Shown here piece by piece: positions 2,552 to 51,456 of a DNA stretch of 64,000 nucleotides. The position numbers were made by a program, and so were the translations under genes. The notes under the pieces are model-generated. The model was not told where the DNA came from, made no database searches, and worked only from the letters and a program-made list of their open reading frames with translations. Source of the stretch: a virus (lineage: Duplodnaviria; Caudoviricetes); the IMG/VR virus record IMGVR_UViG_3300028797_000100, positions 1 to 64,000 of that record. One strand, 5' to 3'. The number at the start of each line of letters is the position of its first letter. Positions within the stretch are counted from its first letter, which is position 1.

Positions 2552-4837
2552 ATGCAGAAACTTTACGGAGATAAGAACATTCCTGATATCGACATAGGAC
2601 CTCTTGCGAAACAGTACATGTGTTTGTATGGAGTCAATGTCAATCTGCAGAGAGCAATCCCTCAGATCCAGGATGGTTTGAAACCGGTACAGCGTAGAAT
2701 GTTGTACCAGCTTTATACCATCTATGGTAAGAAGCATGTTCGTATATCAGTACTCATGGGTGATTTACTTAAACTCCACCCGCACGGCGACCAAGGTCTG
2801 GGTGATACTATTGCTCGTTTATGTCAAACATTCTCGAACAACATTCCACTCATAGAGACTGAGGGTAATGCAGGTACTCTCGCTGGTGGTGATGATGCTG
2901 CAGCCGCTCGTTATCTTGATATAACATTATCAGACTTTGCTGCAAAAGCATTGTTTGATGAGTTTGATGGAAAGGTATCAATGAAACCATCATATGATGA
3001 TTCCGCAGTTGAACCTATATGTCTTCCTGCCAGATTCCCAATCATTCTGTTGAATGGTACTGCAGGTATAGGATATACTTTGTCATCAGATATCCCACCA
3101 TATAACATCAATGAAGTAGCGGATGCAACTATCAAGTTACTTAAGAATCCAGAAGCTAAAGTTAAGCTCGTACCAGACTTACCGACTGGATGTGATATAA
3201 TTATCGAAGATGAGAATGCTTTCACAATGCAATCTTCATTTGAGATAGATATGGTAAACTATGTCATCACAATTACCAATACTCCATACATGTGGTTTAT
3301 TGAAAAGCTTGATGATCAACTTCGTATCCTTCAGGATAATCCTGCAACAAAGATAAATGAGATTATATCATTCGATCAGGAGCAAGAAAGACTTGAAGAT
3401 GGTTTGAGATATGTCATCAGATGCAAACAGTGTAATCTGTATAAGGTACTGGAGACATTGTTCAAACGTATCAAGGGTTTCAGAGTTAGATTCACTACAA
3501 CAAACATGGTTGTCGTTGATAATGATTTCCGTACTAAGGAATTTACACCACGCCAGATATTAAGATCTTGGATTAACTTCAGATTGGCATATAAGCGTGG
3601 TTGGTTCTTGAGAGAACTTGTTGAGAAGTCTGCTAGATATGATATGTTATCTGGTAAACTCTTCATGTTATCTCCAGAGAATCTTGATAAGACTATCGGA
3701 ATATTCAAGTCATCCAACAACAAAGACGAAATCATTCAGAATCTCGTAAAGGGATATAATGGAAAGGTAACATCATCTCAAGCAAACTTTGTCAAGGACT
3801 TACATCTGTATGAGTTAAACAAAGCAGAGTATGCAACTACCAAGAAGAAGATAGCTGCTCTTAAAGATGAGATTGATTACATCCATGAGAACGTTGCAGA
3901 TCCAGATAAGATCCGTGATGTTGTAATTGAGGAAGTAAGAGAACTCAAAGAGAAGTATGGTTTCCCAAGACGTAGTAAGATACTTAACTCTCAGACTCAG
4001 GATGGTTCCAACATTAGTATCGTTCAGATCTTAACTGATGGAGCTATCATGTTCTCAGAAACAGAGAATCCTGAACATATGTCTTCTGATATTGTTCCGA
4101 TATCTGGAGAAGAAGTATGTCTCATAGATGATAAGGGTAATTTCATCAAAGCTAATCTTGATAAGGTTCCTCATGGTAAACCTCTTACACTTACATCAAT
4201 CGGTAAGACAGTAATGGGTAACTGTGTTGCTGCTGTATCTAACAAGATAAACAACATAGTTATTCTGACAAACAAGGGTCGTATTAAGTATATGCCAATT
4301 GATAAGATTCCGTCAAATGCAACAAGGAAACCATTGATACCCATATCTGGTGATGAAAAGATTGTATCAATACTTGAAGTACCAGATACATCATCTGCAG
4401 ATATACTCATCTATACTTCCGATGGTATGGGTAAGCGTATCTCAACAGCAGATCTGAATAAGGTTAACTCTGTTGATGCTGCTGGACAATTCATAATCAA
4501 GACGGATTGTGAAGTGAGTGGTATGTTCTGCATCAATTCGAATAAACCATATCTTGTATATGTAACTCGTCTTGGTCGTATAAGACTTAACCATTCAAAG
4601 TATCTGTCAACTGTTAAGAAGTTTGCTGATCCTAAACCAATCATCAAACTCTCACAACAGGATGACCTCATAGCAGTATTCTGTGTAGATAATGAACAGT
4701 CAATCGTTATGCATCATGCGGATACACGTATATCGACAGTCCATATCAATACATTACAACCAACAACAATGTCGGTTGAACCAGTTAGACCCAAGCATGT
4801 ACCAGGTGTACGTGTTATTAGAGCAACATTATCATGA
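2552..4837 (+). CDS. gyrA: Type IIA topoisomerase subunit A (GyrA/ParC family) with C-terminal beta-pinwheel-like repeats
   Basis: RAIPQIQDGLKPVQRR, HPHGD, AAARY catalytic Tyr, LPARFPIILLNG; C-terminal repeats such as ILTNKGRIK, IYTSDGMGKR, YVTRLGRIR. Confidence 0.9.
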   Translation: MQKLYGDKNIPDIDIGPLAKQYMCLYGVNVNLQRAIPQIQDGLKPVQRRMLYQLYTIYGKKHVRISVLMGDLLKLHPHGDQGLGDTIARLCQTFSNNIPLIETEGNAGTLAGGDDAAAARYLDITLSDFAAKALFDEFDGKVSMKPSYDDSAVEPICLPARFPIILLNGTAGIGYTLSSDIPPYNINEVADATIKLLKNPEAKVKLVPDLPTGCDIIIEDENAFTMQSSFEIDMVNYVITITNTPYMWFIEKLDDQLRILQDNPATKINEIISFDQEQERLEDGLRYVIRCKQCNLYKVLETLFKRIKGFRVRFTTTNMVVVDNDFRTKEFTPRQILRSWINFRLAYKRGWFLRELVEKSARYDMLSGKLFMLSPENLDKTIGIFKSSNNKDEIIQNLVKGYNGKVTSSQANFVKDLHLYELNKAEYATTKKKIAALKDEIDYIHENVADPDKIRDVVIEEVRELKEKYGFPRRSKILNSQTQDGSNISIVQILTDGAIMFSETENPEHMSSDIVPISGEEVCLIDDKGNFIKANLDKVPHGKPLTLTSIGKTVMGNCVAAVSNKINNIVILTNKGRIKYMPIDKIPSNATRKPLIPISGDEKIVSILEVPDTSSADILIYTSDGMGKRISTADLNKVNSVDAAGQFIIKTDCEVSGMFCINSNKPYLVYVTRLGRIRLNHSKYLSTVKKFADPKPIIKLSQQDDLIAVFCVDNEQSIVMHHADTRISTVHINTLQPTTMSVEPVRPKHVPGVRVIRATLS

Positions 4838-4843
4838 TTATAT

Positions 4844-4868
4844 CCGGGGTGGGATATTCCCACCCTGG
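4844..4868 (+). terminator. GC-rich hairpin after gyrA
   Basis: CCGGGGTGGGA-TAT-TCCCACCCTGG; weak U tract. Confidence 0.55.
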
Positions 4869-4892
4869 TAAATTTATTTAATTCAAAGGAGA

Positions 4893-5714
4893 ATGTTAAT
4901 TATGTTTAACAAGAAAGTCAGCATTAAGTTTGAAGACTTCAGAACAGTGGTAAATTCGTGTGCAAAGTATCTTTCAGATGAGATAAACAGAACTTTGGAT
5001 TCTCGTCCTGATATATTTACAGCGAAGCATCGCAAGATATTTCATTCAGCAGTACTTCCATCAGCATTACTTTTCGCAGAAGATGAACTCTTGTTTGTCG
5101 CCAGAAAGAATAAGGATGGTGAAAAAGTAAAGTGGGATGAACCAACTTATTCAAAGAAGGAAATTGCTCATATATATAACCAAGGCAGAGTTGAAAGACA
5201 GCGTACTCCTGCTAAGGCGAACATGGCATACAAATTCGTAGATGGAAAGCTTCAGATCACTGATTTGTCTATCAGTGTCAACTATGATATTCTTAAGACA
5301 GATATACTCCTCAATCTTTATCGTATAAATGATTTCGTGGAGTATACTCTTAAGACATGGGCAAGACACGAAGCAGGACACATTCTTGACTATATCATTT
5401 CATATGATGGTAAACCCAAGTCTGTTCTTGATAAATCAGTACGTGAAGAGAACAAAGCCCAAAAGGAATACAAAGCATGGATTAAATCCGTTATGCCAAA
5501 GGGTGAACTCCTGTTACCTCCTGAGCTTGAAAGACAGCGTGTTGACATGTATTTCAACATGCCACAAGAAGCACGTGCTGATATACTTGGTGGAGTTGAC
5601 CGTAGAAAGGCTAATGACTTCATGTTCAATCAGGACGGATATCGTATCGTCGCAACTATTAAAAGTAAACCAGTAAAGATAAAACCTGTGAAGGAAGAAA
5701 CCAAAACTGAATAA
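4893..5714 (+). CDS. Putative zinc metallopeptidase-like protein (HExxH)
   Basis: ARHEAGHILD followed downstream by PQEARAD (candidate third ligand Glu). Confidence 0.55.
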   Translation: MLIMFNKKVSIKFEDFRTVVNSCAKYLSDEINRTLDSRPDIFTAKHRKIFHSAVLPSALLFAEDELLFVARKNKDGEKVKWDEPTYSKKEIAHIYNQGRVERQRTPAKANMAYKFVDGKLQITDLSISVNYDILKTDILLNLYRINDFVEYTLKTWARHEAGHILDYIISYDGKPKSVLDKSVREENKAQKEYKAWIKSVMPKGELLLPPELERQRVDMYFNMPQEARADILGGVDRRKANDFMFNQDGYRIVATIKSKPVKIKPVKEETKTE

Positions 5715-5739
5715 GCTTTACTGAAATAAAACTGAGGGG

Positions 5740-5970
5740 ATGTTAATAGTGAACGAGATAACTGATAAAACACCAAACATAGAAATGGCGGTTTCTAAAC
5801 AAGAACCTGTCGCTTTATACAAAATCTATTCTAACATTAGTAGGGCTGTATTAGGGGAAATCTACTTAACGAAAGAACAACGTGATATACTTACCAAAGC
5901 TTTTCAACATAGAGGGAAGTACCATCAGGACTTAGCGTTGTTAATCGACGTAGAAGAAAATCATAAGTAA
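5740..5970 (+). CDS. Hypothetical protein
   Basis: Fills the gap between co-oriented genes; GAGGGG RBS. Confidence 0.6.
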   Translation: MLIVNEITDKTPNIEMAVSKQEPVALYKIYSNISRAVLGEIYLTKEQRDILTKAFQHRGKYHQDLALLIDVEENHK

Positions 5971-5986
5971 AGGAGATGATGCTCTA

Positions 5987-7519
5987 ATGGCGTCCACATG
6001 TTTTGTAGTTACCGTTAGGGCTACATCTATAACTGTATCAAATGGAGAAGAAGCGATATATTCGTTATCAACACTCATTGACATGTTAACATATGAAGAT
6101 GAGTTTGCTGAAGATACTAAAACATTGGGGTTCATGTATGATAAAGAAACGGATACGTTGTTTCTTCATAAAGGCGTTGACATAGAATATCTTCAGAGAT
6201 GTCTTGGTAATGTGAGGGTGGTATATGATTTATATCACCCTTTCAAACCAATGAGATTTGAATATGAAGAAATCATAGCACCTCGTAATGAAGAACAAGT
6301 TGACGTTATCGACTTTATTACAGGACAAGGATATCATGATAATGGTAATGATTCACAAATCTTTTTAGTTAAAGATCCTGGTTTTGGCAAGACCTTCTGT
6401 TCAGGTGTTGGACTGTGTAAACTTAAGATGAAGACTCTCATCATTATGCATAGAGATGCATTAAGACGACAGTGGTTGGATTCATTGTTCAACATGAATG
6501 GTTTATCAACCAACGAAGTCCATGAAATAGATTCATCTGAAGAACTTGAAGCTATTGCAAAGGGTAAGCTTCATCCTGATTATGATGTCTATCTAATGAC
6601 ACATGCCACATTCCGTGCTGGTCTCAACAGAATACAAAAGATGCGATATGTAATGAACATCACCAAGAATCTTGGTATTGGTTTAAAGATTATTGATGAA
6701 GCACATCTTGAATTCAGAGATACATTGATAATGGATTTTTGTTTCAATGTTAAAAGGAATCTGTATTTGACTGCAACAGCAGGTAGATCTGGTAAGGATG
6801 AGAATAGTATCTTCAGACACGTATTCTCTGATGCTACATTCTACAAACCATCGGTGTTGTTGACATCTAATGCACCGAAGAAATGGGTAAACTATACAAC
6901 CGTAGAAGTCAATACTCATTGTAAACCCAACATATATAAATTCAGAGTTGCTGGTGGTAAAGGAATGAACCCTGCTTCATATGGTAAGTGGGTTATTCAA
7001 TATGATAAAAAACATACACACTTCAAATGTCTTGAAGATCTTATAAAGATTTCATATGAGAAAGATCCATATGCAAAGATACTTGTGTTCTTACCACTGA
7101 TTGATTTATGTGAAGAATGTGTATACTTCTTAAAGACACATCTTGATCGAGACAGAGACTTTGATTATGATTTGGATATAAGAACGATATGTTCAAAGAA
7201 TTCCAAAAAGGATAATGAGTACGCCAAGAAAAGTGATATCATTGTAACCACGATCCAATCTTGTGGAACTGGTACTGATATCAAAGGTATCACAACAATA
7301 ATCTCATGTTCACCATATGTATCTAAGATCACAGCACAACAGGTGTTTGGTCGTATAAGATATATTGGTAAGATTGGTGATTATTATGATATATACGATT
7401 CATCAATTCCTATGGATAGATTCTGGCTTAAGAGTCGATATAAGACATTCAAGCATCTTGCCTTGAATGTAAAACATATCTCTTGGAGTGATGATGAAGA
7501 AAATAATGACGCCCGCTAA
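5987..7519 (+). CDS. Superfamily 2 (DEAH) helicase, UvsW/XPB-like
   Basis: Walker A PGFGKT, IIDEAH, LTAT, GTGTDI, QQVFGRIR. Confidence 0.9.
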   Translation: MASTCFVVTVRATSITVSNGEEAIYSLSTLIDMLTYEDEFAEDTKTLGFMYDKETDTLFLHKGVDIEYLQRCLGNVRVVYDLYHPFKPMRFEYEEIIAPRNEEQVDVIDFITGQGYHDNGNDSQIFLVKDPGFGKTFCSGVGLCKLKMKTLIIMHRDALRRQWLDSLFNMNGLSTNEVHEIDSSEELEAIAKGKLHPDYDVYLMTHATFRAGLNRIQKMRYVMNITKNLGIGLKIIDEAHLEFRDTLIMDFCFNVKRNLYLTATAGRSGKDENSIFRHVFSDATFYKPSVLLTSNAPKKWVNYTTVEVNTHCKPNIYKFRVAGGKGMNPASYGKWVIQYDKKHTHFKCLEDLIKISYEKDPYAKILVFLPLIDLCEECVYFLKTHLDRDRDFDYDLDIRTICSKNSKKDNEYAKKSDIIVTTIQSCGTGTDIKGITTIISCSPYVSKITAQQVFGRIRYIGKIGDYYDIYDSSIPMDRFWLKSRYKTFKHLALNVKHISWSDDEENNDAR

Positions 7520-7535
7520 TGCGGGCTTCTTTTTT
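7511..7535 (+). terminator. Rho-independent terminator
   Basis: GCCCGC-TAAT-GCGGGC followed by T tract. Confidence 0.8.
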
Positions 7536-7549
7536 CTTCATTTTCATAG

Positions 7550-7559
7550 ATATATTATT
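7550..7559 (+). promoter_or_regulatory. Putative phage early promoter ATATATTATT
   Basis: Exact 10-mer also at 15046, 18642, 43237, 59255 and 305 (minus), always upstream of a gene start. Confidence 0.65.
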
Positions 7560-7610
7560 ATAGTGCACGATAGGACATTATCATGCAATAAGAAAGAAAG
7601 GATTATTTAA

Positions 7611-7853
7611 ATGAAATTCAAAACATTGAGACGGTTGTTAACATTCTTAACGATCGTGACCGCATTGAATGCGATAATTGCCACGATGATTGTAATGTAT
7701 GCATATGGAGCACTAGTGGATTTCGTGGAGTCTCCATTTGCAATTATCTTTTCGGGCGTTCTCGCCGTATTAGTAACGACGGGAATATCTACAATTATTG
7801 GCAATACATTTATCAAAGCTTATAAAGATTTCTTAAGAAACAAAAGAAGATGA
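7611..7853 (+). CDS. Small membrane protein (2 TM)
   Basis: Two hydrophobic segments, basic C-terminus, RBS. Confidence 0.7.
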   Translation: MKFKTLRRLLTFLTIVTALNAIIATMIVMYAYGALVDFVESPFAIIFSGVLAVLVTTGISTIIGNTFIKAYKDFLRNKRR

Positions 7854-8658: not shown

Positions 8659-9714
8659 ATGAGTAAATTAAACATCAACAAGGATAGGATTATCAACAAG
8701 CTTAGAGAATATAAGCGTCACGTTGGTATCGCCGCAGGAGTACTTCTGGCAGTAGGTATATCTACAACTGCAGTTTCACATTTTTCAATGAATGAAGACA
8801 TTGCAGTGTCAGAGGATAATATCATAGAAGGTGTGACCGAGATAACAACTACTACTGATATCCCTATGGCAACAGTCGTTACATCAACAGCAAAGTCCAT
8901 GAAATACAGTGTAACAACTGCCTTGTTGACAACACTTAACACCACAGCTGGTACGGTAATTGAAACACCGACAATTACAACCGTAACTACTATAGCTTCA
9001 ACTGAAAGCATCAAGCCTTTACCGGCACCGCCTAAGATGGAGCAGGCTGAGGAACCAACGACAGCAGAGAACACCACTGTTGTAGAGTCTACCACAACTG
9101 AGACAACAACCGAGTCTACAGAAGCAACTACAACAACAGTTGCTACTACAGTTGAAGAGACTACCACTACTACTTCAGAACCAGAGGTAGGAAACAGGGA
9201 ATTCACTGTGTATAAACCTAGTACACACTACGTACATAGGAATACATGTCATTGGTATACCGATGAGTGTTATGAAATCACATCAACAGAAGGTTTAGAG
9301 TGTAGATATTGCACTGAATGCAATCCCGACATAGAGATTGTAACAGCATATCAAGTACCTACTCCGACTTTGACTTCATTACAGTACGTAACCGAAGAAG
9401 AGCGTATCTATCTGTGCAATACAGTTGCATATGAGTACGGCTCTGATTGGGTGTCGCTCTACGACAAAGCATGTGTCGTAGCAACTGTAATGAATAGAGT
9501 TCGTGATGGTGGTTGGACTAATGGTCTGCCTAGTACAGTGTACAATGTACTGACAGCTCCATATCAGTACAATCCGGTTTACGCAACTCCTTACTACAGC
9601 TATAATGTAACACAGAGCTGTATTGATGCTGTCGAATACTATTTCGAGCATCAGAGCGACTTCCCTCACTATACATCATTCTGGGGTGACGGTCGTTACA
9701 ATTACTTTAGATAA
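8659..9714 (+). CDS. Membrane-anchored cell wall hydrolase (SleB/Hydrolase_2-like) with Thr-rich linker and small Cys/His metal-binding domain
   Basis: N-terminal TM, T/E-rich stalk, YVHRNTCHW..CRYCTECNP, then LCNTVAYEYG..VVATVMNRV..VLTAPYQY. Confidence 0.75.
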   Translation: MSKLNINKDRIINKLREYKRHVGIAAGVLLAVGISTTAVSHFSMNEDIAVSEDNIIEGVTEITTTTDIPMATVVTSTAKSMKYSVTTALLTTLNTTAGTVIETPTITTVTTIASTESIKPLPAPPKMEQAEEPTTAENTTVVESTTTETTTESTEATTTTVATTVEETTTTTSEPEVGNREFTVYKPSTHYVHRNTCHWYTDECYEITSTEGLECRYCTECNPDIEIVTAYQVPTPTLTSLQYVTEEERIYLCNTVAYEYGSDWVSLYDKACVVATVMNRVRDGGWTNGLPSTVYNVLTAPYQYNPVYATPYYSYNVTQSCIDAVEYYFEHQSDFPHYTSFWGDGRYNYFR

Positions 9715-15479: not shown

Positions 15480-16643
15480 ATGAAAAATCTCAAGTCAGTA
15501 AAGATTGTGAAGAACACAATCGACCAGATGTACGACGCAATGACATGTGTGTCTAAAGAAGATATCGATGTTATTCTGAGAATTAATCCTGTCATTCAGA
15601 CGGATCTCGAACAGCTCAAAAAATTATTCGAATCAGATACTATTTCAGAGATTGAACCTGTCATTGTAGCCCAGCCAGAACCTGTTGTTGTCAAGGAGGA
15701 GGAAGAACCAACACAGGTAGAAGATGAAATTATTGAAACGCCGGAGCCAAAGGAAGAGGCTCCAAAAGTAACTGTCACTGTATCCAGTGATTGGCTCAAG
15801 TACAAACCCGATGTGGTTTGGAAGAAGGATATGGGTCAGTCATCTAAGCGCTTTAAGGAAGGTCTCATGGTCTCAAACGAAGGTGACGTTTGGGATATCA
15901 AACATAACCAGCTTCTCGAAGGTAAGTTCCTTGATTGCGAAATGAAGGTGCTTATCAAGAAGGACACCTATGTGAATGAAGAACCAGAGGATTCTCACGT
16001 TAGAATTGCTCCGATTGTATGTCGTGCCTTCGGTATCAATTCAAACACAAAGAATTCATCCACAGCAACCAAGGTTATCATTGATTACATCGATGGTGAT
16101 AGACGTAATCTGAGACCTGAGAATCTTAAATGGGTTAAGACCATTTCGTACCCGAATAAGTCGAAAATCCTTGCAGAAGATGTATGCCGCAGACTCGTTG
16201 AGGCAAAGGGTGACATCGATGCAACCATGAAGAGATATTCTGATAGCACCATCACCAGAGGTTATATCTCAAACATCCGCAATAAACTTATCGAGACAGC
16301 ATTGTCATCGAAATTCTTCTACATTGAGAACGGTAAGTTCCGTGCTGTTAACGATAAGAAAGTTAAACCTGCAGAGAGTAAGCCCAAGGTATCTGCATCA
16401 GCATCTTCATACGAATTCACAAATGAGCCTATCGAAATGCTTGAAAACAGTATACGCAAAGGAACACTCACAATCGGTGAAAAGAATCTGATGATTGTTA
16501 AGACAATCGAGGAACTTCAGGGTGGTAACACTTCCAAGAAGATCACTGCAGAGGACATCGTTGATTCAATTAGAGATAAGTGGAAGATCTCTCTTCCCAC
16601 AGATATGGCTCAGACAATTCTTGACATAGGAGGTATAAAGTAA
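15480..16643 (+). CDS. Degenerate (probably inactive) NUMOD4/HNH-like protein with HTH-like segments
   Basis: VSNEGDV, HVRIAPIVCRAF and IDYIDGDRRNLRPENLKWV match the HNH_3 pattern, but the catalytic His is replaced by Tyr. Confidence 0.65.
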   Translation: MKNLKSVKIVKNTIDQMYDAMTCVSKEDIDVILRINPVIQTDLEQLKKLFESDTISEIEPVIVAQPEPVVVKEEEEPTQVEDEIIETPEPKEEAPKVTVTVSSDWLKYKPDVVWKKDMGQSSKRFKEGLMVSNEGDVWDIKHNQLLEGKFLDCEMKVLIKKDTYVNEEPEDSHVRIAPIVCRAFGINSNTKNSSTATKVIIDYIDGDRRNLRPENLKWVKTISYPNKSKILAEDVCRRLVEAKGDIDATMKRYSDSTITRGYISNIRNKLIETALSSKFFYIENGKFRAVNDKKVKPAESKPKVSASASSYEFTNEPIEMLENSIRKGTLTIGEKNLMIVKTIEELQGGNTSKKITAEDIVDSIRDKWKISLPTDMAQTILDIGGIK

Positions 16644-17143
16644 TGGCTGATAATAGAATTGAAAGAACGGTTGACTGTATAGAAACCTTTAAGGTAGGTT
16701 ATGCTACCTTAAGAGAGGAGCAGTTCAACAAGGAAGACATTACAGACTTCGTCGATTTATTCCCGGAGTATGGGCTCCGTATATCTCTCATATATCATTT
16801 CCTCAACGGAGATCTTAACGTATCTGCTGATATCGATACGGAAGATGATACTGATGAGCAGTATGATGATTCAGAGACCGAAGAAGAATCAAAGCCATAT
16901 TCCCGCAAGGGTATGACTTACAACCGCATGACAAAGCTCGATGCGGAAAACATCTCGAAGTATATCGCTGAGAAGTGTAGAGGTCGTGCAGACTTTGGTT
17001 CAATTGTAAATGACATTTATGATTATATAAATGGCAAATTCAATAAGGGAACCATCAGAGATCTTGTTCATGGTAAAACATGGGCAACAATTTCCCAGAA
17101 TTACTTCAAAATCGAAAAGAACAAGATAAAGTCAGTAGTATAA
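16643..17143 (+). CDS. Hypothetical protein with C-terminal HTH-like domain related to the upstream gene
   Basis: AENISKYI...TIRDLVHGKTWATISQNYFKIE resembles AEDVCRRL...YISNIRNKLIETALSSKFFYIE of 15480; translationally coupled (TAATG). Confidence 0.7.
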   Translation: MADNRIERTVDCIETFKVGYATLREEQFNKEDITDFVDLFPEYGLRISLIYHFLNGDLNVSADIDTEDDTDEQYDDSETEEESKPYSRKGMTYNRMTKLDAENISKYIAEKCRGRADFGSIVNDIYDYINGKFNKGTIRDLVHGKTWATISQNYFKIEKNKIKSVV

Positions 17144-17171
17144 GTTCTCGTGGAACTTAAAACCACGCGTT

Positions 17172-17205
17172 GTCTCCGGGGGATTAACATCCCCCGACGT
17201 GAGAC
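17172..17205 (+). promoter_or_regulatory. Leader hairpin immediately 5' of the array (no U tract)
   Basis: GTCTC-CGGGGGAT-TAAC-ATCCCCCG-ACGT-GAGAC. Confidence 0.6.
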
Positions 17206-17215
17206 GTACAGTAGC

Positions 17216-18021
17216 GGTCCTGTTGCACACAATGTCGCATTATGACGTTGGGGTTCAGTGGAGTTTTGACTCGTGGAGTTTCGGCATGGGTTTGGTTAGG
17301 TCTTGCCTGTTGAGTTCAGTATTGTTTCGTGACGGTTGAGTTCCGTCAGGTAAAGAGTGGCCGTGTTTGGGTAACGTCCCGTTGGGCGGGTGCGTAGTTT
17401 CGGCTTTGAGACGGACTGTTCGGTAGTGGACGTTTGGTTTCGGTGAAGTAATGTGCCTTAATGTGGTATGACGTCGTGGTAAGGTGATATGAAGCGAGGT
17501 GGCACTTTGTAAAGGTATTGCATAGCTAACTCGGGTAAGCTGGCGTACGGGTATGGTGATGCCCGATAGTGTCAGGTAATGGTGTGCTGTAGCATTGTAC
17601 TGGACAGTATTGTTTCGTTTTGGTGCAGGGCAGCTAAGATGTGTCTAGTTCCGGTATCGTAGCGTTAACTCCTGCTGTGATTAGCTAAGGTGAGGCCGGG
17701 TGCTGAGCGGTATCGTTGTGATAGACCATGTATCGGTAAGGCTGGGTGTCGTGCGGTGCGACAGATCATTGCGTTGGTATGACTCCGCATAACACGGATG
17801 TGTGTTGTGGTGGTAGGGTTCTGTTACGTATTGTCGGCAGCGTAGGGGTTCGGTTATGCGCAATGCCGTTGGTTATCGTGCCGGTGAAGTGTTGAAAGGT
17901 GATGTCAAGTAACGTTTCGGTTAGGTATGGTTTCGTCAAGCAATGCGAGGTAAAGGTGTAGTTTCGGATCATCTAGGTTCGTGGTGGTTTGGCCAAGCCT
18001 ATCCAGGCTACATGCGGTATC
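17216..18021 (+). ncRNA. Pentamer-periodic G-(GY-NNN)n array, 22 units; candidate programmable guide-RNA array
   Basis: Unit starts (all GGY) at 17216, 17252, 17283, 17334, 17370, 17402, 17442, 17478, 17514, 17550, 17581, 17622, 17653, 17689, 17735, 17776, 17812, 17852, 17883, 17919, 17955, 17986; 19 of 22 lengths are 5n+1; the repeat structure is directly visible, RNA function is inferred. Confidence 0.75.
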
Positions 18022-18031
18022 AAAGAAAGAC

Positions 18032-18066
18032 ATGCTCCCCATTTCGGGGAGCATTCTTTTTTTTTT
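18032..18066 (+). terminator. Rho-independent terminator closing the array (probably bidirectional)
   Basis: ATGCTCCCC-ATTTC-GGGGAGCAT + long T tract; A-rich on the 5' side. Confidence 0.85.
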
Positions 18067-18334
18067 ACTTTATGAGATGCTTATTAAATTTAACATATCC
18101 ATCAACATACATTTCTTCCTTAGCATCATTATAAGTTACCTCATAATATTTACCATCAGGAAGAGTTGTAGATAACTGAGCTTTCTGGCTACCGAGTACA
18201 TATTGTGAATTTACAACATATACATCATCGATTGTAAACTCAACATGATCTGTTGGATCAAGTCCTTCGATTACCATCAGATACACAGCCTCTTTTGCTT
18301 TCTGGATAAATTCTGCTGAACCGTTTAACTTCAT
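18065..18334 (-). CDS. DUF6275-like small phage protein
   Basis: DDVYVV..KAQLSTTLPDGKYYEVTYN..KEEMYVDGY pattern, recalled from this family. Confidence 0.7.
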   Translation of the reverse strand: MKLNGSAEFIQKAKEAVYLMVIEGLDPTDHVEFTIDDVYVVNSQYVLGSQKAQLSTTLPDGKYYEVTYNDAKEEMYVDGYVKFNKHLIK

Positions 18335-18618
18335 TCTACCACTCCATGTTTTACTCTGTCATGCTCTTCGGCACGTTTACCGTTGTTCCAACGATCCATT
18401 GTACCAACGAGATAGCCTGTTATACGTCTAATCCTAGAGAAAGGAGCTGAATGTTTATGGGTTTCGATCTTAACATCTTCACCCTCAAACTCAAGGATTA
18501 TCTCATCGATAATCTCATCGGGGTATTTGTTCTTAACATACTTAACGTACTCCTGTACTTCTTCCTCGGGGATGGTTGAGATGTCGCCGTCTTTAAGACT
18601 AACTTTCATAAATAACAC
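18331..18618 (-). CDS. Stand-alone NrdD C-terminal glycyl-radical-domain protein
   Basis: RIRRITGYLVGTMDRWNNGKRAEEHDRVKH is the class III RNR glycyl-radical loop; only 95 aa. Confidence 0.75.
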   Translation of the reverse strand: MLFMKVSLKDGDISTIPEEEVQEYVKYVKNKYPDEIIDEIILEFEGEDVKIETHKHSAPFSRIRRITGYLVGTMDRWNNGKRAEEHDRVKHGVVE

Positions 18619-44074: not shown

Positions 44075-44084
44075 GGGATTAACA

Positions 44085-44384
44085 ATGAAGAAGAAGGGTT
44101 TAACGGTCATCGAGATTATTGTAGCATCTGTCATAGTTATAGTACTGCTATTAATAATCGGCGGTGCTTTACTAAATGAGAAGAACAAGATATCTGAAGG
44201 AACAGTTGTTGAACGTACGTATGTATCAGGATATATGACAGACAATGGATATGTTCATTCAAAGTGTAAACTGACTATCGAAGGTGAAAAGAACGGTAAA
44301 ATAGTTCAGTACACATTTGAGGTTCCTGAGTCTGAGTATGCTCAGTACCAGGTTGGAGATCATTATCCAAAACCGAGGGGGTAA
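44085..44384 (+). CDS. Small membrane protein with type IV prepilin-like N-terminal signal
   Basis: MKKKG/LTVIEIIVASVIVIVLLLII: basic leader, Gly at -1, Glu at +5, hydrophobic helix. Confidence 0.65.
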   Translation: MKKKGLTVIEIIVASVIVIVLLLIIGGALLNEKNKISEGTVVERTYVSGYMTDNGYVHSKCKLTIEGEKNGKIVQYTFEVPESEYAQYQVGDHYPKPRG

Positions 44385-50577: not shown

Positions 50578-51456
50578 TTACAATACCCCCTCTAACTCCG
50601 TATTAGCATATCCAAGAGTACTGAAGGATTCATCAAGTGCATCTTGTACATTTGTCGCAGTTGCTCCAGATGTAGAGTTATCATATACTATACCAACCGC
50701 ATCTTTGTTATACGTAGGAGTCCAATCCATCTTAACACCACTCCATGAACCACCACCAGCAATTGCATTCCATGAATATGGAGCAGTTGTCAATGATTTG
50801 CATGTCCACCAGAATGCGGGACCATTAACCATTACTTCTGCTTCAGCATTACCTGAGAATGGTAATGCTGGTGAATACAGTTGACCAGTAACGATTGTAT
50901 TCGTTGGAAGGTTCTTCGCATACAGTTCATCAGTAATCTGCTTCAGAGTCTTTCCCGAGGTTGTTATATTCAACTCAGTGAATGTAGTGAAGTTATACTG
51001 AGCATCTATCTTCTCTTTGATAGTAGCCATAGCGGTATCAAGAATAGTTAAACTGTTACCGTAGTTTACTAACATCTGTGAACCACGAATACCGATAATG
51101 TCACCAACCTTTGTTGCAGAACCACCATTGATAGACTGCATAAGTTTATATGTAACTTCACCGGTATTGTTATCAGTTACTTTGGTTACGGTGTAACGGC
51201 TTTTATCACCTTCACCACCGCCTCCTCCGCCACCGCCCTCATCAGGGAAGTAGTCATAGAAGTTTGTACCATCAATAACTTTTCTGGTACCAGCTTCAAA
51301 GATATAATAGTTTGACAGCTGTATCATGTGTTTAAGCTGTTCCGCATCTATGTCATATCCATAACATGGATTAGGTTGATTGATTATAGGAATATTCCTT
51401 GGGTTTTTTGTAGGAATAGTCATATCAATTATATCAACACTAACTGTATCAGCCAT
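50578..51456 (-). CDS. Putative virion-associated protein
   Basis: Start revised to MADTVS after GAAAGGA; C-terminal ATNVQDALDE fibre motif. Confidence 0.7.
   Translation of the reverse strand: MADTVSVDIIDMTIPTKNPRNIPIINQPNPCYGYDIDAEQLKHMIQLSNYYIFEAGTRKVIDGTNFYDYFPDEGGGGGGGGEGDKSRYTVTKVTDNNTGEVTYKLMQSINGGSATKVGDIIGIRGSQMLVNYGNSLTILDTAMATIKEKIDAQYNFTTFTELNITTSGKTLKQITDELYAKNLPTNTIVTGQLYSPALPFSGNAEAEVMVNGPAFWWTCKSLTTAPYSWNAIAGGGSWSGVKMDWTPTYNKDAVGIVYDNSTSGATATNVQDALDESFSTLGYANTELEGVL

What the first reader, a model, noticed from the sequence alone, without database searches (positions are those of the whole stretch)
17216..18021. Removing the GY scaffold leaves unique 18-30-nt strings of spacer-like length
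Seen: concatenating the NNN positions gives non-repetitive strings. Examples: unit 17442 GAAAATGCCAATGGTGACCGT, 17478 AAGGATGAAGAGGGCTTTAAA, 17550 ATGGATCCGAGTCAGAAT, 17735 AAGTGGGTCGCGGCGAGAATTGTT, 17883 GAAGTTAAGGATCAAAACTTC, 17986 TTGCAACTACAGTACGCGATC. Several read as plausible codon runs (ENANGDR, KDEEGFK, KWVAARIV), while others contain stops, so this is weak evidence. Inference: the strings may be captured target sequences from a competing phage, the host or the phage itself. They would be invisible to ordinary BLAST because scaffold bases interrupt them every 3 nt. I saw no convincing match inside this window.
Basis: partly seen in the sequence, partly recalled or inferred. Interest (0 to 1): 0.75.

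Follow-up and report, generated by a model that had tools for sequence, protein, structure and literature searches.

The report
Phage VIPR guide-RNA array
This 0.8-kb non-coding stretch of a gut jumbo phage is a guide-RNA array of the recently described VIPR system, and the three free letters of each five-letter unit, joined together, spell short sequences that in two sister arrays match genes of a rival phage.

Summary
Window 17216-18021 is about 160 pentamers G-Y-N-N-N. An extra G every 6-9 units cuts it into about 22 segments, and the joined NNN letters give unique 18-27-nt strings.

It is a "staggered" vrRNA array of a VIPR system (bioRxiv 2026.04.26.720920). The same phage genome holds two more such arrays with the same hairpin leader, and a Cas7-like RAMP gene. 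All 80 fetched relatives of that gene sit next to a period-5 array.

The reading as interleaved target sequences is largely supported, but only through the sister arrays:
- One guide matches an IMG/VR phage contig at 27/30 joined NNN letters.
- The next guide in the array matches the adjoining site at 23/27.
- A third-array guide matches another gene of that contig at 22/27.
- Matches stop exactly at the extra-G boundaries, and decodings with any other target period give nothing.
- The third letter agrees in 21/28 units and always lies on the codon wobble position.

This suggests a triplet, gap-free target code, unlike the published NN-plus-skip rule.

No target was found for this array's own guides. 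"Capture" of sequences is not shown. Earlier notes of this scan had already named VIPR for a sister array.

The parts
15480..16643 (+). 387-aa ORF with a degenerate HNH_3-type domain. It is a candidate Vipr-accessory (Vap-like) gene, paralogous in that domain to the 157-aa ORF upstream of the second array.
   Evidence: Pfam PF13392, E 1.2e-5. phrog_959 (HNH endonuclease) matches both proteins, E 7e-8 and 1e-6. Local BLASTP match of the two, E 0.003.
16643..17143 (+). 166-aa ORF of unknown function directly upstream of the array
   Evidence: ORF list. No Pfam or PHROG match.
17143..17215 (+). Conserved leader with two hairpins (about 17143-17157 and 17165-17212). It is shared by all three arrays of the genome.
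   Evidence: 84% identity over 64 nt to genome 155280-155341, and a shorter match at 68373-68400. The consensus fold has 3 base pairs kept through changes on both sides.
17216..18021 (+). Staggered vrRNA array: about 160 pentamers G-Y-N-N-N. Single extra G residues (hexamers) divide it into about 22 guide segments, mostly of 6-9 pentamers (31-46 nt).
   Evidence: Spectrum and autocorrelation. Parse. Logo. Folding energy no better than shuffles, z 0.21. No Rfam family.
18032..18063 (+). Intrinsic terminator (9-bp G+C-rich stem followed by a T run) that ends the array transcript
   Evidence: Terminator scan and direct reading of the sequence.

Best explanation
The stretch is one of three long 'staggered' guide-RNA (vrRNA) arrays of a VIPR system carried by an AR9/PBS1-like jumbo phage of gut bacteria. 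It lies about 50 kb from the vipr gene, so it is a solo array.

Inferred from the published mechanism:
- The array is transcribed from the leader to the terminator.
- Cas7-like Vipr protomers, encoded at 66943-67839 of the same genome, bind one pentamer each and hold the G and Y.
- The variable bases are left exposed to pair with double-stranded DNA and silence it.

Shown here for the sister arrays:
- The extra G after every 6-9 pentamers marks where one guide ends and the next begins.
- The three variable bases of successive pentamers correspond to consecutive bases of the target, so 5 RNA nt stand for 3 DNA nt.
- The third base lies on the codon wobble position of genes of a competing gut Clostridia-type phage.

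The 22 guides of this array are therefore most likely directed at genes of rival phages or other mobile elements that are absent from the collections I could scan.
For: - Period-5 G-Y scaffold with hypervariable NNN and G punctuation.
- Three paralogous arrays with a shared leader that shows compensatory pair changes. Arrays 1 and 2 end in terminators.
- The 298-aa protein of the same genome folds confidently (pLDDT 80). Its best solved-structure matches are Csm3/Cas7 RAMP subunits, E 2e-6, with 116 hits at E<=1e-3.
- The protein has 562 relatives in IMG/VR. All 80 fetched loci have a period-5 G array on the same strand beside the gene.
- Published VIPR papers describe Vipr filaments on pentamer repeats, alternative YNNNG repeats, staggered arrays and HNH-type accessory genes.
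- Guide-target matches in contig IMGVR_UViG_3300029251_000270: 27/30, then 23/27 for the next guide at the adjoining site, then 22/27 for a third-array guide in a phrog_408 gene. Flanking units match only at chance level, 0-3 of 9.
- In that contig only decodings with a 3-nt target period give hits. Contiguous NNN gives 3 guides against 0 in 20 shuffled sets.
- Position 5 agrees with the target in 21/28 units and falls on the wobble position in all three cases (frames).
Against: - No target was found for any guide of this particular array.
- Expression, processing and Vipr binding are untested.
- The vipr gene is 50 kb away and outside the window.
- The target contig was found by a scan that fixed only positions 3 and 4 of one guide, so that guide's 20/20 is by selection. 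The independent evidence is its third letters and the other two guides.
- None of the three matches is perfect, so the true targets are relatives of that contig.
- The published rule skips the third target base, and I cannot show that position 5 really pairs.
Confidence: 0.85

Rival explanations
1. It is the same VIPR array, read by the published rule. Only the two bases after G-Y pair, and every third target base is skipped. Position 5 is then the degenerate counterpart of the first G of canonical GGY and is not read. It resembles the target only because guides descend from a copied allele or because of how they are made.
For: - Positions 3 and 4 match better (51/56) than position 5 (21/28).
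- The published structure leaves room for one flipped-out target base per protomer.
- The hit was found with an NNx pattern.
- NNx also gives two perfect 14/14 matches in the phage's own genome, against 0.02-0.08 expected.
Against: - 75% agreement at an unread, unconstrained position (chance is 25%) would need recent templated copying, which is not known for VIPR.
- Wobble positions diverge fastest between alleles. The lower agreement at position 5 is therefore what a fully read base would show against a diverged allele.
- A junction-likelihood test on 487 guides of this Vipr clade favours contiguous NNN (z 3.0-3.6) and shows nothing for the positions-3,4-plus-skip rule (z about 0).
- Within-triplet base correlations mirror lag-1 and lag-2 statistics of natural DNA, r 0.91-0.95.
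Confidence: 0.25
2. The arrays act on the phage's own genes as a timing or shut-off device, rather than, or as well as, on rivals.
For: Guide 17479-17514 of this array matches window 44084-44103, across the start codon of ORF 44085-44384. A third-array guide matches 50986-51005. Both are 14/14 under NNx and end at the guide boundaries. Expected perfect hits are 0.02-0.08.
Against: - Third letters agree only 2/7 and 1/7, so under the triplet reading these are 16/21 and 15/21.
- One of the two guides is low-complexity (GA repeated three times).
- An equal excess (2 against 0.2) appears in a control register in another phage, and five other VIPR phages show no excess of self-hits.
- The published surveys report no self-targeting.
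Confidence: 0.07
3. It is not a guide array. The period of 5.13 is half a DNA helical turn, so the stretch could be a DNA-level element such as a protein-wrapping or curvature site. Alternatively it could be a structural or protein-sponge RNA with no sequence-specific targets.
For: 36 nt per 7 units gives 5.14, close to half of 10.3-10.5 bp. No target is known for this array.
Against: - There is strong strand asymmetry, a leader with compensatory pair changes and a terminator.
- The arrays associate strictly with a RAMP-fold protein family, 80 of 80 loci.
- Sister-array segments match foreign genes exactly between the punctuation marks.
- The RNA has no folding energy beyond shuffles.
Confidence: 0.03

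Closest known systems
VIPR systems (Viral Interference Programmable Repeat; bioRxiv 10.64898/2026.04.26.720920, 10.64898/2026.04.26.720927, 10.64898/2026.10.15.759431). The closest form is the 'staggered' arrays and YNNNG-type repeats named in the first paper.
   Same: - Phage-encoded small RAMP protein.
- Pentanucleotide repeat RNA with fixed G/Y and hypervariable letters.
- One protomer per repeat, and 3 nt of target per pentamer.
- Targets in competing phages on either strand, with the least constrained base on the codon wobble position.
- HNH-type accessory genes.
- Solo arrays away from vipr.
   Different: - The scaffold is G-Y (2 fixed, 3 free letters), not GGY/NN.
- Guides are not separate ~100-nt RNAs with a conserved tail. 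They are abutting 31-51-nt segments in 0.8-1.2-kb arrays, set off by one extra G.
- There are about 80 guides in three arrays in one jumbo phage.
- The third target base is mirrored in the guide (75%), whereas the published rule has no guide letter for it. The text of the papers held here gives no targeting rule for YNNNG repeats.
Class 1 CRISPR-Cas effector backbones (Cas7/Csm3 filaments on crRNA)
   Same: The RAMP fold of the protein. A helical protein filament on a guide RNA with periodically displaced bases.
   Different: - There is no repeat-spacer array.
- The period is 5 nt with 2 displaced bases, instead of 6 nt with 1.
- The guide is non-contiguous.
- No cas genes were seen in the loci examined; they were not searched for systematically.
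TRAP-type RNA-binding rings (11 (G/U)AG triplets separated by 2-3 nt)
   Same: A short fixed motif recurring about every 5 nt on one RNA strand. This was my first lead from memory.
   Different: The arrays are tens of times longer and the variable letters carry target information. The partner is a RAMP protein, not a TRAP ring, and there is no link to attenuation.

Membership tests
VIPR system | A Vipr protein (minimal RAMP fold: RRM core, G-loop, thumb) encoded by the same element | tested here: met
   A 298-aa ORF at genome 66943-67839 (outside the window). AF2 pLDDT is 80. The best PDB matches are Csm3/Cas7 chains, E 2e-6. It was not compared directly with a published Vipr structure, because none is in the libraries.
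VIPR system | RNA made of tandem pentanucleotide repeats with conserved G/Y letters alternating with hypervariable letters | tested here: met
   G 85%, Y 88%, and three positions with <=0.05 bit each. The motif is G-Y-NNN (the paper's YNNNG class), not canonical GGY-NN.
VIPR system | Consistent co-occurrence of the protein family with such arrays | tested here: met
   All 80 IMG/VR loci that encode relatives have a period-5 G array on the same strand next to the gene.
VIPR system | Variable letters specify natural DNA targets in competing mobile elements through a non-contiguous guide | tested here: inconclusive
   Met for sister arrays 2 and 3: 27/30, 23/27 and 22/27 in one phage contig, with clean controls. 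No target was found for the guides of this array.
VIPR system | 1-nt skip rule (NN read, every third target base ignored) | tested here: inconclusive
   The target period of 3 nt is met. The 'skipped' base agrees with guide position 5 in 21/28 units, and guide statistics favour contiguous reading.
VIPR system | Accessory vap gene with a DNA-interacting domain next to vipr or the array | tested here: met
   HNH-type domains in the ORF upstream of this array and in the ORF between vipr and array 2. Function untested.
VIPR system | vrRNAs are expressed, processed and co-purify with Vipr; the RNP silences matching DNA | not testable with these tools
   Needs RNA-seq, pull-down and reporter assays.
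CRISPR array | Direct repeats of about 25-40 nt separated by unique spacers of similar length | tested here: not met
   No tandem or direct repeat family in the region. The only periodicity is 5 nt.

The most novel reading that the evidence does not exclude
In this G-Y-NNN (YNNNG) class of VIPR, all three variable bases of each pentamer pair with the target. The guide is then interrupted but the target is read without gaps, 5 RNA nt per 3 DNA nt. This is a different code from the published NN-plus-skip rule, and it gives a 7-unit guide 21-nt specificity. If instead position 5 is not read, its 75% agreement with targets would imply that guides are made by templated copying of foreign DNA, which would be an acquisition step not yet known for VIPR.
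Probability: 0.5. Interest if true: 0.72.

Novelty: new variant of a known kind. Interest (0 to 1): 0.58.

Why it matters
VIPR was described only in 2026, and its targeting rule was worked out for GGY/NN guides. This phage gives a natural example of the little-described staggered YNNNG form. It carries about 80 guides in three arrays.

This is the first guide-target evidence I could find for that form. The guide boundaries are the extra G residues. The target period is 3 nt. The third base is mirrored in the guide and sits on the wobble position.

If the triplet reading is confirmed, these systems could be searched against databases and reprogrammed with higher specificity per protomer. It would also show that the RAMP filament can present either two or three bases per subunit. 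Finally, it points to warfare between a jumbo phage and smaller phages of gut Clostridia.

Tried and rejected
- **TRAP-like or nucleocapsid-like protein coat, or a DNA half-turn element.** These were my first ideas from the 5.13 period. I dropped them once the RAMP gene and the VIPR papers were found.
- **Structured RNA.** No Rfam hit. Folding z-score 0.21.
- **Decodings NNN+1, NNN+2, NN+0, NN+2, NN+3.** No hits above shuffles in the own genome, in five other complete VIPR phages, in 1 Mb of VIPR loci or in the target contig.
- **Self-targeting.** Two 14/14 NNx matches are suggestive but were not replicated, and their third letters are at chance.
- **Guides against the phage's own vipr/vap.** No excess of near-matches.
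- **Cross-targeting among six VIPR phages.** None.
- **Strict in-frame coding test.** Weak only. Guides closed in both phased frames number 35 against 47.6 +- 5.2 in controls, z -2.45. An earlier test used the wrong antisense phase and showed nothing.
- **Exact scans without result.** (that segment may be a structural 3' element rather than a guide).
- **Metagenome scan.** It gave 6 hits with third-letter agreement of 2-4 of 9, which is chance, and no second guide nearby.
- **Homologues of the target peptide in GTDB genomes.** None.
- **Leader-motif scan of IMG/VR.** Two chance hits without arrays.

Full report
**The observation.** Window 17216-18021 has no long ORF with a family match, no Rfam family and no similar DNA among 50,697 phage records. 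It is G+T rich, and the G indicator has a sharp spectral peak at period 5.13, power 7722 against a mean of 182. Autocorrelation peaks at 5, 10, 15/16, 20/21, 26, 31 and 36 show a pentamer lattice that slips by one base about every 36 nt. A Viterbi parse gives 138 pentamers, 22 hexamers and 2 tetramers. Pooled over 506 pentamers of this genome, position 1 is G (85%) and position 2 is T or C (88%). Positions 3-5 are nearly uniform at 0.03-0.05 bit each. Tandem Repeats Finder sees no repeated unit, so the free letters are indeed non-repetitive.

**Context.** The window is the first 64 kb of a 163.7-kb IMG/VR record, about 61% complete. Its multisubunit RNA polymerase is closest to those of AR9, PBS1 and other jumbo phages. 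The period-5 signal occurs at three places only, all on the + strand: this one, 68420-69455 and 155330-156510. The three arrays share no guide sequence. They do share a roughly 70-nt leader with two hairpins, three of whose pairs are kept through changes on both sides. This array and the second one end in clean intrinsic terminators. The array RNA has no more folding energy than shuffles, z 0.21. It therefore looks like an unstructured, protein-bound RNA.

**Identity.** A note from an earlier stage of this scan pointed me to VIPR. I read the papers myself.
- VIPR systems pair a small phage-encoded RAMP protein, Vipr, with vrRNAs made of pentamer repeats. One protomer binds one repeat and sequesters GGY, and the exposed NN pair with dsDNA while every third target base is flipped out.
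- The discovery paper also lists NNNGG, YNNNG and NNNNG repeats, 'staggered' arrays of abutting vrRNAs, and HNH-type accessory genes. It gives no targeting rule for those forms.
- In this genome a 298-aa ORF at 66943-67839, just upstream of the second array, has no Pfam or PHROG match.
- That ORF folds with pLDDT 80, and its best solved relatives are Csm3/Cas7 backbone subunits, E 2e-6, with 116 hits at E<=1e-3.
- It has 26 relatives in the protein collection and 562 in IMG/VR.
- Every one of the 80 loci fetched has a period-5 G array on the same strand beside the gene, with hexamer punctuation and no G at position 5.
- The ORF upstream of this array (15480-16643) and the ORF between vipr and array 2 both carry an HNH-type domain.

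I therefore file the stretch as a solo, staggered, YNNNG-class vrRNA array.

**Decoding tests on genomes held locally.** I cut the arrays at the hexamers, which gave 55-60 guides of at least 6 units. I tested up to thirteen registers, with two or three read positions and 0-3 skipped target bases, against unit-shuffled controls.
- In the phage's own genome only the canonical-like register (positions 3,4 plus one skip) gave perfect hits.
- Guide 17479-17514 matched 44084-44103, and a third-array guide matched 50986-51005.
- Expected perfect hits were 0.02 by shuffling among guides and 0.08 by permutation within guides.
- In both hits the third letters agree only at chance level.
- Five other complete VIPR phages show no excess of self-hits, and a control register in one of them gives the same 2 against 0.2.
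- I therefore treat the self-hits as probably chance.
- There were no cross-hits among the six genomes or in 1 Mb of VIPR loci.

**Statistics of the guides themselves.** I used 487 unique guides from 80 loci.
- Base correlations within the triplet mirror natural DNA at lag 1 (r 0.91 and 0.92) and lag 2 (r 0.95). The pair 'position 5 to next position 3' resembles lag 1, r 0.69.
- With boundary units trimmed, the real unit order is more natural-DNA-like than shuffled order only when position 5 abuts the next position 3. Contiguous NNN gives z 3.0-3.6, and positions 3,4 plus skip gives z about 0.

These are hints, not proof.

**Collection scans.** Most exact scans found nothing. One did. The NNx pattern of the 10-unit guide at 68879-68929 hit IMGVR_UViG_3300029251_000270 at 4120-4148 on the minus strand.
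- Target CCG ATT GCT GCG AGA ACT GCA TTT GTG TGT stands against guide NNN CCG ATC GCG GCG AGA ACT GCA TTT GTG TGC. That is 27/30, including 7 of the 10 third letters that the scan had left free.
- The next guide of the array (68930-68975) matches the adjoining site 4087-4113 on the other strand at 23/27.
- A guide of the third array (156117-156162) matches 9279-9305 at 22/27.
- Per-site probabilities are 7e-13, 4e-10 and 6e-9. The units flanking each guide match at 0-3 of 9, so the matches end exactly at the extra-G marks.
- In that contig, contiguous NNN gives three significant guides against none in 20 shuffled sets. NN plus one skip gives two, and all registers with another target period give none.
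- Over the three pairs, positions 3, 4 and 5 agree in 25, 26 and 21 of 28 units.

**The target contig.** It is 27 kb with 50% G+C.
- Its DNA polymerase is 62-64% identical to those of phages of gut Christensenellales, Ruminococcus and Lachnospiraceae.
- It carries a DUF2800 nuclease gene and an ABC-3C defence operon.
- Two guides hit a small glycine-rich ORF next to that operon. That ORF has an in-frame TAG.
- The third guide hits a phrog_408 gene at the head of the DUF2800 operon.
- In all three cases guide position 5 falls on the third codon position (frames).
- The three mismatches of the first guide are synonymous. The other two guides spell related peptides: GYPMDLLRG against GYPIEMLWG, and DTFEALYDP against DTFEEIYNP.

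The guides thus look like copies of diverged alleles of these genes, so the true targets are relatives of this contig.

**This array.** None of its guides found a target.
- Exact contiguous or NNx scans of IMG/VR, JGI/ENA metagenomes and GTDB genomes gave nothing, or only chance-level hits. The metagenome scan gave six hits with third-letter agreement of 2-4 of 9 and no second guide nearby.
- Exact matching is insensitive here, because the real pairs above carry 3-5 mismatches. This is absence of evidence only.
- Fifteen of the 17 parsed guides are open in the sense frame or in the wobble-phased antisense frame.

**Mechanism.**
- Shown: the scaffold, the punctuation, the shared leader and terminator, the RAMP-fold partner family, and guide-target matches that obey a 5-to-3 correspondence bounded by the extra G.
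- Inferred from the published structures: one Vipr per pentamer holding G and Y, filament formation, dsDNA binding and transcriptional silencing.
- Open: whether position 5 pairs, how guides are cut out, what the leader does, how new guides arise, and what this array targets.

**Limits.** The decoded guides have no sequence reference, so only short typed patterns were searched.

Noticed in passing
window 18331-18618 (-): A 95-aa ORF that matches only the extreme C-terminal (glycyl-radical) end of anaerobic ribonucleotide reductase NrdD (PF13597, E 2e-8). It may be a stand-alone 'spare part' peptide.
   Followed up: no
window 44084-44103 and 50986-51005: Perfect 14/14 matches, under the NN-plus-skip reading, to guide 17479-17514 of this array and to a guide of the third array. 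The first covers the start codon of ORF 44085-44384, whose N-terminus weakly resembles a prepilin methylation motif. They exceed permutation expectation, but the third letters are at chance and other phages do not replicate the excess.
   Followed up: partly
L117 3952-4272 (+) in IMGVR_UViG_3300029251_000270: The small glycine-rich ORF hit by two guides has an in-frame TAG. It lies convergent to an ABC-3C defence operon (AAA_23, MC2, CTD6) at 4325-7847. It has no family match and no relative in GTDB genomes.
   Followed up: partly
L006-L085 (80 IMG/VR loci of the same Vipr clade): In these arrays the last unit of each guide, and to a lesser degree the first, is A-rich at positions 3 and 4 (roughly G-C-A-A-N-G). 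The arrays of this phage lack this boundary motif. It confounds unit-shuffling tests unless the end units are trimmed.
   Followed up: partly
genome 68759-68795 and 69419-69452 (second array, outside the window): A roughly 35-nt segment occurs twice, once mid-array and once at the 3' end just before the terminator. It may be a structural 3' element rather than a guide, and array 2 may be two arrays fused. My first scan used it as a guide.
   Followed up: no
window 18065-18334 (-): An 89-aa ORF of family DUF6275 directly downstream of the array terminator, on the other strand.
   Followed up: no
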